DNA of 38,887 nucleotides from a virus (lineage: Duplodnaviria; Heunggongvirae; Uroviricota; Caudoviricetes): IMG/VR virus record IMGVR_UViG_3300032070_000730, one strand, 5' to 3'. A model generated the notes under the pieces. That model saw only the letters and a list, made by a program, of their open reading frames with translations. It was not told the DNA's origin and made no database searches. Shown one piece after another: positions 5,281 through 35,382 of the stretch (its first letter is position 1; every line of letters starts with the position of its first letter). The position numbers were made by a program, and so were the translations under genes.

Positions 5281-6135
5281 TTAGATTTTCATATTCTTAC
5301 TTATGTGAAATGCTATGATAGATTTTCGTGGAATTGCTGGGTTTATTAGTTTTATGAATCGTTTTGTTTCTTTACTACCACCTAAAACCGATACATGAAA
5401 CATATCAACGCAATCTTTTCTTAAAGAAATTTTAAACCCTAACGAAACAATCAATTTCTTTATTATTGTTATCTTTTTTTCATTTTTTTGGGAGATAATT
5501 GCTCTATAATATCCCTCTTTTTTATATAAACAACCATCACCATCGAAAAATCCTTTTAAATAAAATATTTTACTGTTGTTATTTTTAAACCATGAAATGT
5601 TAAATTTTTTTATCCATTGAATCAAAAAAATTGAATTACATTCAATCAAATAACCAAACCCTTGTTTTATATTTATATCATTTTTTATACAAATGCGGGG
5701 GGTTAAACCTATATTTTTTAAACATTTTTTAAATTCATTAGCAAATTCTTTATCTTTTGTTAGTAATCCAATTTTATAATATTTTCTTTTTTTGAAATTT
5801 ATCCATCCATCACTATGAATAGCCCCCAAAACATAAAATAAATCCTTTGTTTTATCTAAATTAAAACTTACCTTCCATTTCATTTCACAGTATTTCGAGC
5901 AAAAATTATGTTTATTTCTTTTTTTGGCAGATGGCGGTCTATAAAAAAATTTTTTACAGAAATTACATTCAATACTTTCATTCCATCTCTTTGTTTTACT
6001 AATTTTTCTATCCCATTTGTTAAAACATTTGCTCGAACAGAAATTGTGTTTTAAACCCGATTGCTTTCGTTGTTTTATTGTAGATTTGCGTCTAACAAAA
6101 AGAATTTTACAGAAATCGCACCTTAAAATTGGCAT
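5281..6135 (-). CDS. free-standing LAGLIDADG homing endonuclease with N-terminal Cys motifs
   Basis: Two motifs, YVLGAIHSDG and YLKGFFDGDG; CxxC...FCS repeats; antisense insertion between two paralogous structural genes. Confidence 0.85.
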   Translation of the reverse strand: MPILRCDFCKILFVRRKSTIKQRKQSGLKHNFCSSKCFNKWDRKISKTKRWNESIECNFCKKFFYRPPSAKKRNKHNFCSKYCEMKWKVSFNLDKTKDLFYVLGAIHSDGWINFKKRKYYKIGLLTKDKEFANEFKKCLKNIGLTPRICIKNDINIKQGFGYLIECNSIFLIQWIKKFNISWFKNNNSKIFYLKGFFDGDGCLYKKEGYYRAIISQKNEKKITIIKKLIVSLGFKISLRKDCVDMFHVSVLGGSKETKRFIKLINPAIPRKSIIAFHISKNMKI

Positions 6136-11711: not shown

Positions 11712-12545
11712 ATGAAAAAATGTATCGATTGTGGTAATTTTATTCATGGTAAAAAATATTGTCTAAAATGTTATCTTAAAAATCATAATCCAGTTAAAAA
11801 AGGGGTTAAAATAACTTGGGGAGATAAAATTTCAGATAGTATAATGAAAAATCCAGTAGATATTGAAAGAAGAAGAATTCAAGGAAATAAAATGAGATTT
11901 ATAAATACGGGTAAAAAAAGAACAAAAAAAGCACGAAAAAAATATAGTCAAAATCTAACAAAAAATTGGCAAGACCCAGAATTTAGAGATAAAAGAGTAA
12001 AACAAATTAAAATAGGTAATTTGAAAAAGGATATGACCAAAGTAAAAGAAAGAATGTTAACAAATAATCCTATGAATAATCAGAAAATAAGAAAAAAACA
12101 TTTGAAAATAATGAGAAGCGAAAGGATGAGAAAAATAAAAAGGGAAAATGCACAAGAACGATGGAATGATGAAAATCAACGAGAAAAGTGGATAAAATCA
12201 ATATTGAAAATCTTATTTAAAAGACCAACAAAACTTGAAAAAGGTTTTATCAATTTTTTTGATACATATAATGTTCCATTTAATTATTGTGGGAATGGTT
12301 CTTTGATAATAGGTGGAAAATGTCCTGATTTTGTTGAAAGTAATGGAAAGAAAATATGTTTAGAAGTTGGAAATAAAAGAGAAAAATCTGTGCCAAGAAA
12401 AAATAGAATATATAAAAATTGGCAGGAATATGAACAACAAAGAATTTCTCACTTTGCTGGTTTTGGGTGGAAATGTTTAGTTTTATGGGAAAATGAATTG
12501 GAAAATGAAGTATTATTAAATAATAAAATCAAGAGGTGGTTATAA
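11712..12545 (+). CDS. homing-type endonuclease (CxxC...CxxC, NPM repeats, PD-(D/E)xK-like nuclease)
   Basis: KCPDFV...ICLEVG; GWKCLVLWENE. Confidence 0.7.
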   Translation: MKKCIDCGNFIHGKKYCLKCYLKNHNPVKKGVKITWGDKISDSIMKNPVDIERRRIQGNKMRFINTGKKRTKKARKKYSQNLTKNWQDPEFRDKRVKQIKIGNLKKDMTKVKERMLTNNPMNNQKIRKKHLKIMRSERMRKIKRENAQERWNDENQREKWIKSILKILFKRPTKLEKGFINFFDTYNVPFNYCGNGSLIIGGKCPDFVESNGKKICLEVGNKREKSVPRKNRIYKNWQEYEQQRISHFAGFGWKCLVLWENELENEVLLNNKIKRWL

Positions 12546-13255: not shown

Positions 13256-14092
13256 TTGGTAGATAGTTTTGCATTGAAAGCATTTCCAGTATTGACACAA
13301 ATTTCAGCAGGCGACCTTGAATGGCATGTAGATTAATAATCTTAATTGGTTATTAAGCATAAATCCCGTTCAGGAAGACCAGATAGTAGATAAAATGCAA
13401 CAATCAGAGGCATTCGCAAAATGCATAAGCCTTAATAAAACTCCATTGTTCTTCGAGTTCTTGGATTATAAAACAAGATACAGGGAGAATGTTGGTGTAG
13501 AAGTAAAGGGCGGAAATAAGAATATCTTACCGCATCCCGAACAGGTAAGTCAACTGGCGTAACAGCATTATCAAAATATACATCACATTTGAGTTGCGTT
13601 CCATTTACTTTATGGCATGTATGTGCGAATGAAATAGAATATCTTGAGAAATTGAAGACTCCATCTTTGCCATACGGTTCTGTCTTCCAGATAGATGAGC
13701 AGACCGAAACACATACTGGTGCAGGGTCATATTCGGAAATGCAAGTATTGGAAGATATGTCTAATATCATCGCTAAAAATCAAATTCATACTTTTTGGTG
13801 CATGGAAGAGAATACAGTTATCAAAACATTAAATGGGTTAATTAAAATTAAAGATTTACCAAATCCAGAACCTTTTAGAGTATGGGGCTTTAATTTTGAT
13901 AAAAAAAGACCAGAACTGGATTTAGCAGTAAAAACATATAGCGGGGAAAAAGAGATTTTTAATATAGTAACAGAAACAGGCGAAGAAGTTAAAGCAACAA
14001 GAGAACATAGGTTTTTTATACTTAATGGCAGTAAAATACAAGAAAAGAAAGTAGATGAATTAAGAGTTGGGGATAAATTAGTGATGATATGA
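13256..14092 (+). CDS. P-loop ATPase N-half + N-intein, spliced join(13256-13331,13363-13515,13536-14092)
   Basis: TTG after gaggtga. The spliced product has VEVKGGTRTGKST (Walker A) and VFQIDE (Walker B), then a Hint domain from Cys at 13799. A packaging role is inference. Confidence 0.85.
13332..13362 (+). other. 31-nt BHB/BHL intron
   Basis: Central helix ATGT/GCAT (one G-U), bulges AG|A and AA|A, 9-bp inner stem TTAATAATC/GGTTATTAA (one G-U); 31 nt is exactly the frame shift needed (HVD-PVQ). Confidence 0.75.
13516..13535 (+). other. 20-nt BHB intron inside Walker A
   Basis: GG/CC outer pairs, central helix GCGG/CCGC, bulges AA|A and AT|C, inner stem TAAGA/TCTTA; removal gives GGC GGA ACC CGA ACA GGT AAG TCA. 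Confidence 0.93.
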
Positions 14093-14970
14093 AAAAAATA
14101 TTAAAAAGACCAAAACAATCTGAATTTATGCATAATACCCGTGCTAATCCAGATTCTCCTTATAACAAAAAATCATGTAGAGATAAGATAAGTAAAAATA
14201 CAACAAAACAATGGAAAAATGCATCTATAAGAGAAAAAATGATAGATGGTATTAAAAAAAGTTGGACTAAAGAAAGATGTAATAAAATGAAAGGCGATAA
14301 TAACCCCGCCAAATCATTACAGGCAAGAAATAAAATAAGCCAAAAATTAAGTGGAAAGAAAAAACCAAAATGGTTGATTGAAAATCTTGCTGAAATACAT
14401 AGAGGAAGACCAGTAAAAACAGCAATAAGAGAAAAAATAAGGAAAACACAATTAAAAAAAGCAGATGAATACAGAAAAAGAAAAATATTATTTCATCAAT
14501 TACACCCAGAAAAACATCCAAATATGTTATTAAGAAGAAATCATAAAACGAAAATTGAAGAAATTTTAATAAAAGAATTAAACAATCTTGGTTGTGTAGA
14601 AAAACAACAAATTAAAACATGTAAAAAATTAAAAGATTTTGTATTTAATTTTTACATAAAAACATATAATGGGTTTAGATTTCCAGATATTAACTTTCCT
14701 TTATTAAAAATAATAATAGAATGTGATGGAAATTATTGGCATAAAAATAAAAAATACGAAAGAAACAGGGATTTAGAATTTAAAAATTTAGGATATAAAA
14801 TATTGCATTTTTCTGGTTATGATATTAAAAATAATTTAAATGAGGTAAAAGATGTTGTGAGAACTGAAATAATAAAAAAAATAGAAAGAATTGGTGAAGG
14901 AAAAACATACGATATAACGACACAAAAAAATCATAATTTTATACTTGGAAATGGCATTTTAGCCCATAAT
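13799..14970 (+). mobile_element. split intein: IntN 13799-14092, endonuclease-IntC 14089-14970
   Basis: Starts CMEENT, has block B ATREHRF and ends YDITT..NHNFILGNGILAHN|C; halves are in different frames with an ATGA overlap and RBS-like gtgatga. Confidence 0.85.
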
Positions 14971-15579
14971 TGCCACCCGCATGAATTTGTGGGTCGTAAC
15001 TCCCAAACCATCTAAAGATGGGGGAAATTGGGTCTTGAGTGCTACGGAAAGAACTTTGAGTATAAATTAATCAGATGCATCCTTTATAATATTTCAGTGT
15101 CAACTCTATCAAAAGTTCCAATGGGCATCGTCGTAATTCCTATCGGTTGGCTTTTCAAGTGCGGTCTTTTTGCTGAACCGACGATTTACAATGGAAGAAA
15201 AACTATAATCACCTGTATAAAAGATGTCTGTCCGAGATACGGAAAGTGTCAGGAATTTATGGCACAGTATGAATACAAGAAAGACAATCAGATTGAATTG
15301 ATAAGGACAAGACAATTTGGTGAAAGAGAGTTTAATAGATTAGAAACAGCAGAAAAAATCGCAAAAGACAAGAACTTTCAGATGTGCAGGACAAAAGATG
15401 AAAGGATGTCAATTGCAAGACTTTTAGTTCAATTCGGGACTCCAGAAAAACTGATAGTAGAAAGCGTTGCTCTTGCAAGGGCTATCGATAAAGGAAGGGT
15501 CGATATTGATTCATTGAGGAAACTTGGCGGGAAAAGAACGACAGAAGGAAATGCTGAAGAAGAAAAGGCAGTCACCTAA
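14089..15579 (+). CDS. NUMOD3/DUF559-like endonuclease + C-intein + ATPase C-half, spliced join(14089-15006,15028-15579)
   Basis: RFPDINF..IIIECDGNYWH nuclease; the C-extein CHPHEFVGRNSQ joins LGLECYGK after intron removal. Confidence 0.8.
15007..15027 (+). other. 21-nt BHB intron
   Basis: Central helix TCCC/GGGA, bulges AA|A and AA|T, inner stem CCATC/GATGG; in frame and contains the TAA at 15013-15; outer helix weak. Confidence 0.85.
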
Positions 15580-15671: not shown

Positions 15672-15815
15672 ATGGCACACAAATATTTGAAACATAAGTT
15701 GACTAAACATAGGACTGTCTTCATCCCAGAGGGGTTTGAATTCGTAAAAGCAGAGCCAGACAAAGAACAACCAAACGTCGTAAAAGTTGTCTTTAAAAAA
15801 AGAGGTGCAAAATAA
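15672..15815 (+). CDS. array protein MAHK, 47 aa
   Basis: Hand-translated; RBS gaggt; not in ORF track. Confidence 0.7.
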   Translation: MAHKYLKHKLTKHRTVFIPEGFEFVKAEPDKEQPNVVKVVFKKRGAK

Positions 15816-16148
15816 GTGGTTCATAAATTCCATCTTGGAAGAGAATATGTGACTGAAAGATTCTACCCGCCAGAACTTTTCCATCCAAAAAGTTTCAGAA
15901 CAATAAAAAGCGGTGGATACAAATTTACAATCGGAGTCCCTAAACAGGCTTTAAAAGTAGACGGATATTTGCCATTGTTTAAGGGAAAGAAATTCACAGC
16001 AGGAACAAGAGTTCAAAGGATGCTCCATCCAGTCGGAAAGTTCGAGAGAAAATATCCGAGAATCTGGAAGGAATTGAAAGCATCCAAGACAAAACTTGTA
16101 ACAGCGACACCGACCCATGAGCCAAAATACGGTCTTGTGGCTGGTTGA
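15816..16148 (+). CDS. array protein MVHK, 110 aa
   Basis: GTG start abutting TAA. Confidence 0.75.
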   Translation: MVHKFHLGREYVTERFYPPELFHPKSFRTIKSGGYKFTIGVPKQALKVDGYLPLFKGKKFTAGTRVQRMLHPVGKFERKYPRIWKELKASKTKLVTATPTHEPKYGLVAG

Positions 16149-34490: not shown

Positions 34491-34512
34491 ATTGGCTTTC
34501 TATTATATATGT

Positions 34513-35382
34513 ATGAGAAAAATCCTTTTGCTTTTGGTCATGTTTCTATTTGTTCTTACTTTTCAGCAGGTCAAATCATCATCTTTAATTAATTGGTGGA
34601 AATTTGATGAATGTTCTGGAGATTTAGTCGCTGATAGTGTCGGAGTAAGTGATGGAACAAGGTATAATTTTGATAATGGCTGGGTTTCTGGTGTAAGTGG
34701 TTGTGCTTTGGAGTTTGATGGAACAGATGATTATGTTAGTATGAATAATGATTCTTCGTTGAATTTTGGTTTAAATAATTTTTCAGTTTCATTTTGGATT
34801 AGAATTGATAATGAAGATTTTTATGGAGATGTTGTTCACAAATCAGGCGGTGAGTTTGGTGATATTGGATGGGGATTCTATACAACATCATCAGATGTAA
34901 TGAGTTTTTTTGCTCAAGATACGGATGAAATAGGGTATATAGACCTTGAATCGTCAGTAGATATACAAGGAACTGGATGGCATTATATAACAGCAACAAG
35001 AGAAGGAAACACATTTAAACTTTATATTGATGGTAATTTGGATATTTTTGATGACACGCAGACAGTTGGTGATTTAGATGTAGTAGATAATTTAACAATA
35101 GGAACACCTTCACTGCTTCGTGCATATTTTAATGGGTCAATAGATGAAGTCAAATTTTATGACTATTATTTATCTGGTAATGAAATCATAGCAGAATATA
35201 ACAGTTATTTTCCACATTATCACCCTTTAAATGATACTTTATCTGATGTTGGTCAAGGTGTTGGAAATCTTTTGTTGAATATGTCACCACCACTCACAAT
35301 CTTAATTATAATCCTTGCTGTTGTAAGTATGGTCGGGTTCATAATATCGTCAGTCGGAAGAAGAATTGGAGAGAAGATATAA
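34513..35382 (+). CDS. LamG/concanavalin-A-like domain fused to a coat-like C-terminal module
   Basis: WWKFDE...ALEFDGTDDYV...FSVSFWI...WHYIT...LYIDG...FNGSIDEVKFY, then LNDTLSDVGQGVGNLL...GFIISSVGRRIGEKI. Confidence 0.85.
   Translation: MRKILLLLVMFLFVLTFQQVKSSSLINWWKFDECSGDLVADSVGVSDGTRYNFDNGWVSGVSGCALEFDGTDDYVSMNNDSSLNFGLNNFSVSFWIRIDNEDFYGDVVHKSGGEFGDIGWGFYTTSSDVMSFFAQDTDEIGYIDLESSVDIQGTGWHYITATREGNTFKLYIDGNLDIFDDTQTVGDLDVVDNLTIGTPSLLRAYFNGSIDEVKFYDYYLSGNEIIAEYNSYFPHYHPLNDTLSDVGQGVGNLLLNMSPPLTILIIILAVVSMVGFIISSVGRRIGEKI

What the first reader, a model, noticed from the sequence alone, without database searches (positions are those of the whole stretch)
13503..13552. 20-nt intron sits inside the Walker A loop of the ATPase
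The insert splits GGC GGA A|CC CGA ACA GGT AAG TCA. Only canonical BHB excision of 13516-13535 yields GxxxxGKS (GGTRTGKS). A near-perfect BHB at the most conserved motif suggests either targeting of conserved sites by a mobile intron or protection of the sequence most likely to be hit by spacers or homing nucleases (inference).
Basis: partly seen in the sequence, partly recalled or inferred. Interest (0 to 1): 0.88.

Follow-up and report, generated by a model that had tools for sequence, protein, structure and literature searches.

The report
tRNA-type mini-intron splitting viral ATPase P-loop
A 20-base insert breaks the ATP-binding loop of an ATPase gene on an uncultured sediment virus-like element. 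It has the shape that the archaeal tRNA-splicing enzyme cuts, and relatives show it is a real, recently gained or lost intron, a kind reported in print for the coding part of only one cellular gene.

Summary
Bases 13516-13535 interrupt an ATPase gene (13395-15579, + strand) inside the Walker A codons. The insert folds as a strict bulge-helix-bulge motif: 4-bp helix GCGG/CCGC, bulges AAA and ATC, a 5-bp inner hairpin and a 2-bp outer helix. Cutting after the second base of each bulge gives VKGGTRTGKST.

Evidence that this is RNA splicing of a live gene:
- It is the best-scoring of all 20-nt deletions and frameshift variants against a profile of 33 homologues.
- It matches the family consensus G-x-T-R-S/T-G-K-S.
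- Contigs about 98-99% identical, from two other sediment studies, lack exactly these 20 bases.
- Relatives carry 20- and 22-nt versions at the same junction, so one conserved frameshift cannot explain it.
- Substitutions switch codon phase across the insert.

No RNA data were listed, and the host, presumably an archaeon, is unknown. Splicing is therefore inferred.

In relatives the same gene carries about 16 such mini-intron sites and 5 intein sites, including an intein and a second, independent intron in the same P-loop.

The protection-or-targeting idea is suggestive only.

This scan noted such introns before, in this genome and in others.

The parts
13395..13515 (+). Exon 1 of the ATPase gene (Met1 to the first base of the Thr codon, ...VEVKGG + A)
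   Evidence: ORF list. tblastn to the uninterrupted homologue P0008. All 8 substitutions against L009 fall on third codon positions.
13516..13535 (+). 20-nt BHB intron: A + TAAGA-ATA-TCTTA hairpin + CCGC + AT
   Evidence: Absent from contigs about 98-99% identical in runs X3 and X4. Versions of 20 or 22 nt sit at the same junction in L009, L005/L008 and L013.
13508..13538 (+). The whole hBHBh' motif: outer helix 13508-09/13537-38, central helix 13510-13/13530-33, bulges 13514-16 and 13534-36, inner hairpin 13517-29. Predicted cuts are after 13515 and after 13535.
   Evidence: Sequence, fold, geometric scan. The cleavage rule 'between the second and third bulge residues' is from PMC2738675.
13536..13798 (+). 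Exon 2: CC of the Thr codon, RTGKST (rest of Walker A), Walker B VFQIDEQTE, up to Trp before the intein
   Evidence: Substitutions against L009 are 6/2/27 by codon position in the spliced phase.
13799..14970 (+). Intein (Cys1 ... His-Asn) with a DUF559/Vsr-like nuclease. It is read as two ORFs that overlap at ATGA 14089-14092.
   Evidence: Pfam Intein_splicing and DUF559. The same two-ORF layout is seen in L002, L003/L004 and L009. An intein-less allele appears in run X3 (joint 13800>15026).
14971..15006 (+). Exon 3 (CHPHEFVGRNSQ)
   Evidence: tblastn
15007..15027 (+). Second BHB intron, 21 nt, holding an in-frame TAA. Central helix TCCC/GGGA, bulges AAA/AAT, hairpin CCATC-TAAA-GATGG, no outer helix.
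   Evidence: L005/L008 carry a 31-nt version at the same site with a compensatory change. It is absent in L001, L002, L003, L006 and L007.
15028..15579 (+). Exon 4 (LGLECYGK... to the stop codon)

Best explanation
Bases 13516-13535 are an archaeal-type bulge-helix-bulge (BHB) intron in the pre-mRNA of a P-loop ATPase gene on an uncultured virus-like element from sediment. The last exon-1 bases (GCGG) pair with CCGC at the 3' end of the intron to form the 4-bp central helix. A 5-bp hairpin inside the intron and a 2-bp exon-exon helix flank it, leaving two 3-nt bulges. The host's tRNA-splicing endonuclease (EndA) would cut after the second base of each bulge, and an RtcB-type ligase would join the exons. 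That makes the Thr codon A|CC and an intact Walker A, GGTRTGKS. Shown here: the structure, the exact junction, the presence/absence and length polymorphism, and purifying selection on both exons in their own frames. Inferred: that excision happens at the RNA level, by EndA plus a ligase, in an archaeal host. The intron is one of a population. Across relatives the gene has about 16 BHB mini-intron sites and 5 intein sites.
For: (1) Geometry: a strict hBHBh' motif whose rule-based cuts give exactly 20 nt. The cutting rule was checked in PMC2738675.
(2) Junction: the uninterrupted homologues P0008/L001, L002, L006, L007, L014, L016, L017, L018 and L022 read G-x-T-R-S/T-G-K-S without a gap. L002, L006, L016 and L017 read VKGGTRTGKST or IKGGTRTGKST. 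Thirty-three homologues carry the motif.
(3) Profile test: deleting 13516-13535 ranks first of about 60 possible 20-nt deletions and all -1/+2 shift products, at 176.4 bits. Shift products score about 161 bits, and the separate ORFs 119.6 and 41.7 bits.
(4) Population polymorphism: contigs from two other studies (X3, 23 mismatches over 1361 nt; X4, 21 over about 2200 nt) show a net loss of exactly 20 nt at 13504-13538. They read E V K G G T R T G K S, and the X4 contig keeps the intein and the 21-nt intron.
(5) Length variants: L009 (92% identical protein) has 22 nt (loop AAATA), L005/L008 have 22 nt (TAAG-TAAAAAA-CTTA), and L013 has 20 nt with G-C changed to G-U. All sit at the same junction GGA A|..|CC, so the frame shift needed is -1 in some and +1 in others.
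(6) Selection: against L009, exon 1 substitutions are 0/0/8 by codon position. Exon 2 substitutions are 6/2/27 in the spliced phase but 2/27/6 if the insert were translated. Variants in X3/X4 switch from positions of residue 2 mod 3 to residue 1 mod 3 across the insert.
(7) The same rule explains every other break in the gene family that I examined, except one relaxed case in L019. Compensatory changes occur: AATTTG/CAAATT versus AATTCA/TGAATT in L006/L007, and CCATC/GATGG versus CTATCT/AGATAG in the window/L005.
(8) Chance: a BHB of this quality at a fixed position and length occurs in 1.7e-5 of cases.
Against: There is no direct RNA evidence of any kind, so splicing is inferred from DNA comparison alone. 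No host genome is held, so the presence of EndA and a ligase, and even the archaeal nature of the host, rest on the motif itself and on unchecked earlier notes. The outer helix is only 2 bp, and 1 bp in L005. The hairpin's folding energy is not unusual (z = -0.68). A loose BHB pattern is frequent by chance.
Confidence: 0.85

Rival explanations
1. Programmed ribosomal frameshifting: the ribosome slips from frame 0 to frame -1 somewhere in the 13520-13559 overlap, and the insert is translated.
For: Both frames are open over 13520-13559, so a -1 shift would give one polypeptide.
Against: The products score about 15 bits lower than the spliced form and destroy the GxxxxGKS spacing. There is no slippery heptamer in the overlap. 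L009 and L005/L008 have 22-nt versions that would need +1, not -1. Near-identical strains lack the 20 nt altogether. The second insert, 15007-15027, holds an in-frame TAA that no shift explains.
Confidence: 0.02
2. Translational bypassing (ribosome hopping), as in T4 gene 60 or the mitochondrial 'byp' elements: the ribosome takes off at GGA and lands 20 nt downstream.
For: Short hairpin-forming inserts in coding sequence are what byp elements look like. A hairpin sits right after the GGA codon.
Against: The junction lies inside a codon (A|CC). No landing codon matches GGA before CGA, and no stop codon follows the take-off codon. Hopping does not predict a 4-bp helix with two 3-nt bulges placed so that the 'cut after the second bulge base' rule gives the exact ends in nearly all of some 20 other inserts.
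Confidence: 0.03
3. Decaying pseudogene: the ATPase gene is dead, and the inserts are debris from repeated endonuclease attack.
For: The gene looks shattered: two small inserts, plus an intein read as two ORFs in the window. Homing endonuclease genes lie nearby at 11712-12545 and 5281-6135.
Against: The exons have no stops. Substitutions are overwhelmingly at third codon positions in each exon's own frame. Every insert has a length and position that restore the frame under one structural rule. The same interrupted layout persists in many diverged relatives.
Confidence: 0.05
4. The insert is removed at the RNA level, but by something other than the host EndA pathway, for example an element-encoded nuclease that recognises the same hairpin.
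For: The element is full of nuclease genes. No host genome or EndA gene could be examined.
Against: The geometry is exactly the EndA substrate, including the cut position. No RNA ligase or RNA endonuclease family was seen among the window ORFs scanned, but only 18 were scanned.
Confidence: 0.05

Closest known systems
BHB intron in the cbf5 pre-mRNA of Desulfurococcales and Sulfolobales (Watanabe 2002; Yokobori 2009, PMC2738675)
   Same: It is a protein-coding gene interrupted by a short intron with a bulge-helix-bulge motif. Cuts fall between the second and third bulge residues. The intron sits inside a codon of the catalytic motif (the catalytic Asp in cbf5, the P-loop Thr here). There is presence/absence polymorphism among relatives.
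   Different: This one is in a virus-like mobile element, not a cellular housekeeping gene. It is much shorter (20 nt) and has a strict rather than a relaxed motif. It is one of two introns in this copy and about 16 sites in the gene family, side by side with inteins. cbf5 splicing was shown by cDNA; here there is no RNA evidence.
Archaeal tRNA and rRNA BHB introns (Marck and Grosjean 2003), including rRNA introns that carry LAGLIDADG homing endonuclease genes
   Same: The hBHBh' architecture is the same: a 4-bp helix, two 3-nt bulges, and exon sequence forming one strand of the central helix. Homing endonuclease genes are in the neighbourhood.
   Different: The substrate is an mRNA coding region, so the length and phase must restore a reading frame. 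The intron carries no ORF.
BHB intron in the 5' UTR of Haloferax volcanii HVO_1309 mRNA (PMC7714728)
   Same: An mRNA processed by the splicing endonuclease, shown there in vivo and in vitro.
   Different: That intron is in an untranslated leader and does not interrupt codons.
Collaborative or intron-protected homing in phages: free-standing homing endonucleases whose target is disrupted by a nearby intron (from my own knowledge, e.g. cyanophage psbA and T-even phages; not checked here)
   Same: An intron sits within a few bases of a homing target in a conserved catalytic motif, with endonuclease genes next door.
   Different: Those are self-splicing group I introns in bacteriophages. Here the intron depends on host protein enzymes, and the protective role is only a hypothesis.

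Membership tests
Archaeal BHB (splicing-endonuclease) intron | Two 3-nt bulges on opposite strands, separated by a 4-bp helix | tested here: met
   GCGG/CCGC with bulges AAA and ATC
Archaeal BHB (splicing-endonuclease) intron | Flanking helices h and h' of at least 2 bp (strict hBHBh') | tested here: met
   Outer helix GG/CC is 2 bp and inner helix TAAGA/TCTTA is 5 bp. In L005 the outer helix is only 1 bp.
Archaeal BHB (splicing-endonuclease) intron | Cutting between the second and third bulge residues gives a functional product | tested here: met
   It gives VKGGTRTGKST, the top-scoring variant, identical to intron-less alleles. The rule is from PMC2738675.
Archaeal BHB (splicing-endonuclease) intron | A spliced RNA exists; cleavage by EndA and joining by an RtcB-type ligase | not testable with these tools
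Archaeal BHB (splicing-endonuclease) intron | The host is an archaeon encoding EndA | not testable with these tools
   No genome is held for the window, and no relative was found in reference genomes.
P-loop NTPase (Walker A/B) | GxxxxGK[ST], followed by hhhhDE | tested here: met
   GGTRTGKS after splicing and VFQIDEQ. The model has a RecA-like core, with Z 8-9 to RecA/Rad51.
Terminase large subunit / named packaging ATPase | A match to a terminase or packaging-ATPase family, or a specific fold match | tested here: inconclusive
   No Pfam or PHROGs hit for P0008. Fold matches are generic only: RecA, Zot, B204, phi8 P4.
Programmed -1 ribosomal frameshift site | A slippery heptamer, and the same shift direction in relatives | tested here: not met
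   No heptamer. Relatives would need +1.
Translational bypass element (T4 gene 60 / byp) | Matching take-off and landing codons, and a codon-to-codon jump | tested here: not met
   The junction is inside a codon and there is no matching landing codon.
Group I / group II self-splicing intron | A ribozyme core of hundreds of bases | tested here: not met
   The insert is 20 nt, and there is no Rfam family in the window.

The most novel reading that the evidence does not exclude
The mini-introns are players in an arms race with homing endonucleases. They sit within 1-7 nt of the five intein insertion sites of this gene. The window's intron is 5 nt from the P-loop site that a LAGLIDADG intein occupies in relatives. 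By splitting the endonuclease recognition sequence at the DNA level while being erased at the RNA level by the host tRNA-splicing enzyme, they would make the allele immune to intein invasion. Alternatively, they are the scars of such attacks that survived because they happened to be spliceable. This would be a new biological role for BHB introns, and an explanation of why they land in the most conserved motifs.
Probability: 0.25. Interest if true: 0.9.

Novelty: new variant of a known kind. Interest (0 to 1): 0.8.

Why it matters
In print, endonuclease-spliced introns inside archaeal coding sequence are known for a single gene, cbf5, plus one 5' UTR case. My literature searches found none reported in a virus.

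Here a virus-like element relies on the host tRNA-splicing machinery to rebuild the catalytic loop of an ATPase. The same gene family holds a whole population of such mini-introns interleaved with inteins.

- For annotation: 'broken' genes in archaeal viruses and mobile elements may be intact, so gene callers need a BHB step.
- For biology: the system ties virus gene expression to a host RNA-processing enzyme. It also offers a natural setting to study how BHB introns are gained and lost, because strains about 98-99% identical differ by this intron, and whether they interact with homing endonucleases.

The scan has flagged the same phenomenon on other DNA, so it may be widespread.

Tried and rejected
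- No RNA holder was listed for the gene, so expression and splicing could not be observed.
- No whole genome is held for the window.
- IMG/VR scans with two exon peptides found no relative.
- tblastn against GenBank phages found nothing.
- A scan of reference prokaryote genomes found no relative.
- Pfam and PHROGs gave no family for the ATPase, either as pieces or as the full-length homologue.
- Fold searches (PDB Foldseek, BFVD, VIA-align wide) gave only generic RecA/ASCE matches, so I do not call it a terminase. The atlas search gave viral 'hypothetical' and Zot-like clusters, which are leads only.
- MFE folding alone does not distinguish the site, and a loose BHB scan is swamped by chance hits. 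I dropped both as stand-alone evidence.
- I looked for a link between the P-loop intron and a free-standing DUF559 endonuclease gene just upstream of the ATPase. The window and L005/L008 have both. L006 has the endonuclease gene without the intron, and L009 has an HNH gene instead. I rejected this as unsupported.
- Strict mutual exclusion of introns and neighbouring inteins fails in L019.
- The intron is single-copy in the window, so it is not a repeated mini-element there.

Full report
**What is at the coordinates.** The + strand reads GGC GGA A, then ATAAGAATATCTTACCGCAT (13516-13535), then CC CGA ACA GGT AAG TCA. An ORF starting at 13395 runs in one frame to a TAA at 13560-62. A second frame is open from 13520 and continues to 14092. 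Removing the 20 bases joins them and gives ...VEVKGG-T-RTGKSTGV..., with the Thr codon made across the junction (A|CC).

The stretch has this structure:
- a 4-bp helix, 13510-13 GCGG with 13530-33 CCGC
- a 3-nt bulge AAA (13514-16) on the 5' strand
- a 3-nt bulge ATC (13534-36) on the 3' strand
- an inner hairpin TAAGA-ATA-TCTTA
- two outer G-C pairs (13508-09 with 13537-38)

RNAfold recovers the central and inner helices and the first bulge. [quoted passage not shown] That is exactly the 20 nt.

**Is it more than chance?** Not by the fold alone. The energy z-score is -0.68. A permissive BHB pattern occurs 343 times on the + strand and about 620 times per simulated window on both strands. The meaningful test is whether a BHB sits exactly at an insert whose ends are defined independently. 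Only 1.7e-5 of all (position, length 16-35) pairs in the window reach this motif's quality, and 8.5e-4 reach a loose definition.

**Independent definition of the insert.** A word-index search with the C-terminal exon found eight relatives, one of them (P0008, 319 aa) uninterrupted. An exhaustive phmmer search with exon 2 found 43 homologues. Thirty-three of them carry G-x-(T/V)-R-(S/T/G)-G-K-(S/T), mostly GxTRSGKS, and P0040 has exactly GGTRTGKS. The alignments to the window's exon 2 begin at query residues 4-7, at or just before the Arg of RTGKS, and do not extend into the read-through intron residues.

I built a profile from the 33 homologues and scored every stop-free 20-nt deletion starting between 13498 and 13555, plus every -1 or +2 shift in the overlap.
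- The BHB deletion 13516-13535 ranks first, at 176.4 bits.
- Neighbouring deletions that also make a GxxxxGKS motif score 173-174 bits.
- Shift products score about 161 bits.
- The two unspliced ORFs score 119.6 and 41.7 bits.

The claim that only this excision gives GxxxxGKS is too strong.

**Relatives' DNA.**
- Intron-less P-loops, contiguous: L001, L002, L006, L007 (the same record as L012, and matching L011), L010, L014, L016, L017, L018 and L022. For example, L006 reads GGC GGA ACA CGA ACA GGT AAA TCC.
- The same intron at the same junction GGA A|..|CC: L009 (92% identical protein; 22 nt, loop AAATA instead of ATA), L005/L008 (22 nt; TAAG-TAAAAAA-CTTA) and L013 (20 nt; CCGT, so G-C becomes G-U).

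Because the lengths are 20 or 22 nt, a translated insert would need a -1 shift in some genomes and a +1 shift in others. BHB excision restores the frame in all of them.

**Population data.**
- Contigs in two other sediment studies match the window at about 98-99%: X3, 23 mismatches over 1361 nt; X4, 21 over about 2200 nt.
- Both show a net loss of exactly 20 nt at 13504-13538. Reconstructed, they read GAA GTC AAA GGG GGG ACA AGA ACA GGA AAA TCA, which is E V K G G T R T G K S.
- The X4 contig spans the intein and the second intron with no gap listed there, so it keeps both. The P-loop intron was therefore gained or lost recently.
- The listed differences concentrate within roughly 150 nt either side of the insert, and none is listed over the next kilobase. 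That mosaic would fit recombinational gain or loss, though nine rows of that table were not shown.

**Selection.** Against L009, exon 1 substitutions are 0/0/8 by codon position. Exon 2 substitutions are 6/2/27 in the spliced phase and 2/27/6 in the phase that translating the insert would impose. The X3/X4 variants switch from positions of residue 2 mod 3 before the insert to residue 1 mod 3 after it. Both exons are therefore under purifying selection, each in its own frame. This argues against a pseudogene.

**The wider picture.** The same 'cut after the second bulge base' rule explains the other breaks I examined in this gene family. One 16-nt insert in L019 is the exception; it has only a relaxed, 3-bp central helix.
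- The window's 21-nt insert 15007-15027 has central helix TCCC/GGGA and an in-frame TAA. L005 carries a 31-nt version with a compensatory C-G to U-A change in the hairpin.
- L006 (34 nt) and L007 (32 nt) are interrupted at TGT CA|T, with the doubly compensated helices AATTTG/CAAATT and AATTCA/TGAATT.
- L005 has further introns of 29, 22 and 21 nt.
- L002 has introns of 26 and 19 nt.
- L003 has introns of 34, 29 and 21 nt.
- L017 (21 nt), L018 (30 nt) and L022 (24 nt) have one each.
- L019 has several more, including a 22-nt intron in the P-loop at ACC AGA A|GT. This is a second, independent insertion, 6 nt from the window's site.

The gene is also an intein hot spot, with five insertion sites:
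- in the P-loop between R and T/S (L003/L004, L015; LAGLIDADG type)
- at Walker B (L002, L003, L016, L019)
- after GVG (L010)
- after AKK (L010)
- after W (window, L009, L010, L019)

Nine of 15 intron sites lie within 7 nt of an intein site. Under a uniform null over the region, p is about 0.003. The window's intron is 5 nt upstream of the P-loop intein site. It is not decisive, because both kinds of element may simply prefer conserved DNA, and because L019 has a 16-nt intron 4 nt from its own intein.

**What the gene is.** Neither the pieces nor P0008 hit any Pfam or PHROGs family. An AlphaFold model of P0008 (pLDDT 76) has a RecA-like ASCE core. It matches RecA/Rad51/UvsX at Z 8-9, with phi8 P4, STIV2 B204, VirB4 and Zot at Z 7-8. 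Atlas neighbours are viral 'hypothetical' and Zot-like clusters. I call it a P-loop NTPase of an unassigned viral family, not a terminase.

**Context.** Runs holding the DNA are all sediment metagenomes. The window has no tRNA and no Rfam hit, and most ORFs have no family. Earlier notes of this scan call the element archaeal; I did not verify that independently.

**Rivals.**
- Frameshifting is contradicted by the 20/22-nt variants, by the intron-less alleles and by the in-frame stop in the second insert.
- Ribosome hopping lacks matched take-off and landing codons, and it does not predict the BHB geometry.
- A pseudogene is contradicted by the codon-phase data.
- Self-splicing introns are excluded by size.
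- A non-EndA RNA-level mechanism cannot be excluded without biochemistry.

**Known or new.** In the literature I could search, BHB introns within coding sequence are reported only for cbf5. One more sits in a Haloferax 5' UTR. No paper on such introns in archaeal viruses turned up. Within this scan the phenomenon was noted before, in this genome and in several others. This case adds near-identical strains with and without the intron, two independent introns and an intein in one P-loop, and a gene family saturated with both kinds of element.

**Verdict.** The best explanation is a BHB intron removed by the host tRNA-splicing pathway (confidence 0.85). The role in conflicts with homing endonucleases remains an open hypothesis, at about 0.25.

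Noticed in passing
window 13799-14970: The intein with a DUF559/Vsr-like nuclease is read as two ORFs that overlap at ATGA (14089-14092), next to an A-run. The same two-ORF layout recurs in L002, L003/L004 and L009. It is either a naturally split intein with the nuclease fused to the C-half, or a recoding site.
   Followed up: partly
window 15007-15027: A second BHB mini-intron (21 nt, holding an in-frame TAA) lies between NSQ and LGL of the same ATPase. It has no outer helix. L005/L008 have a 31-nt version with a compensatory change.
   Followed up: yes
window 13800-15026 (run X3): A low-depth contig in another sediment study joins 13800 to 15026 with 32 other letters between. That is an allele lacking both the intein and the 21-nt intron.
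   Followed up: partly
L003:2314-5561, L004, L015, L010, L019: Relatives carry up to three inteins in this one ATPase gene, including a LAGLIDADG intein in the P-loop. L010 comes from an NCBI assembly (GCA_964490155.1).
   Followed up: partly
L019:2770-2790: A 16-nt insert between DIQQ and ICAK restores the frame but has only a relaxed BHB: 3 of 4 central pairs and a weak inner helix.
   Followed up: partly
window 11712-12545 and 5281-6135 (- strand): Free-standing homing-endonuclease-like genes. The first is a 277-aa ORF with a zinc-finger-like N-terminus and a Vsr/PD-(D/E)xK-like C-terminus (read by eye). The second is a LAGLIDADG_3 + zf-FCS protein.
   Followed up: partly
window 34492-35382: A 296-aa ORF has a concanavalin-A-like lectin domain (Laminin_G_3, E 2e-22) and PHROG hits to virion and baseplate proteins. 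It is a likely receptor-binding or virion protein.
   Followed up: no
window 15672-16148 and downstream: Small ORFs start with M-A/V-H-K (MAHKYLK, MVHKFHL). This matches the shared 'start box' that earlier notes describe for this genome.
   Followed up: no
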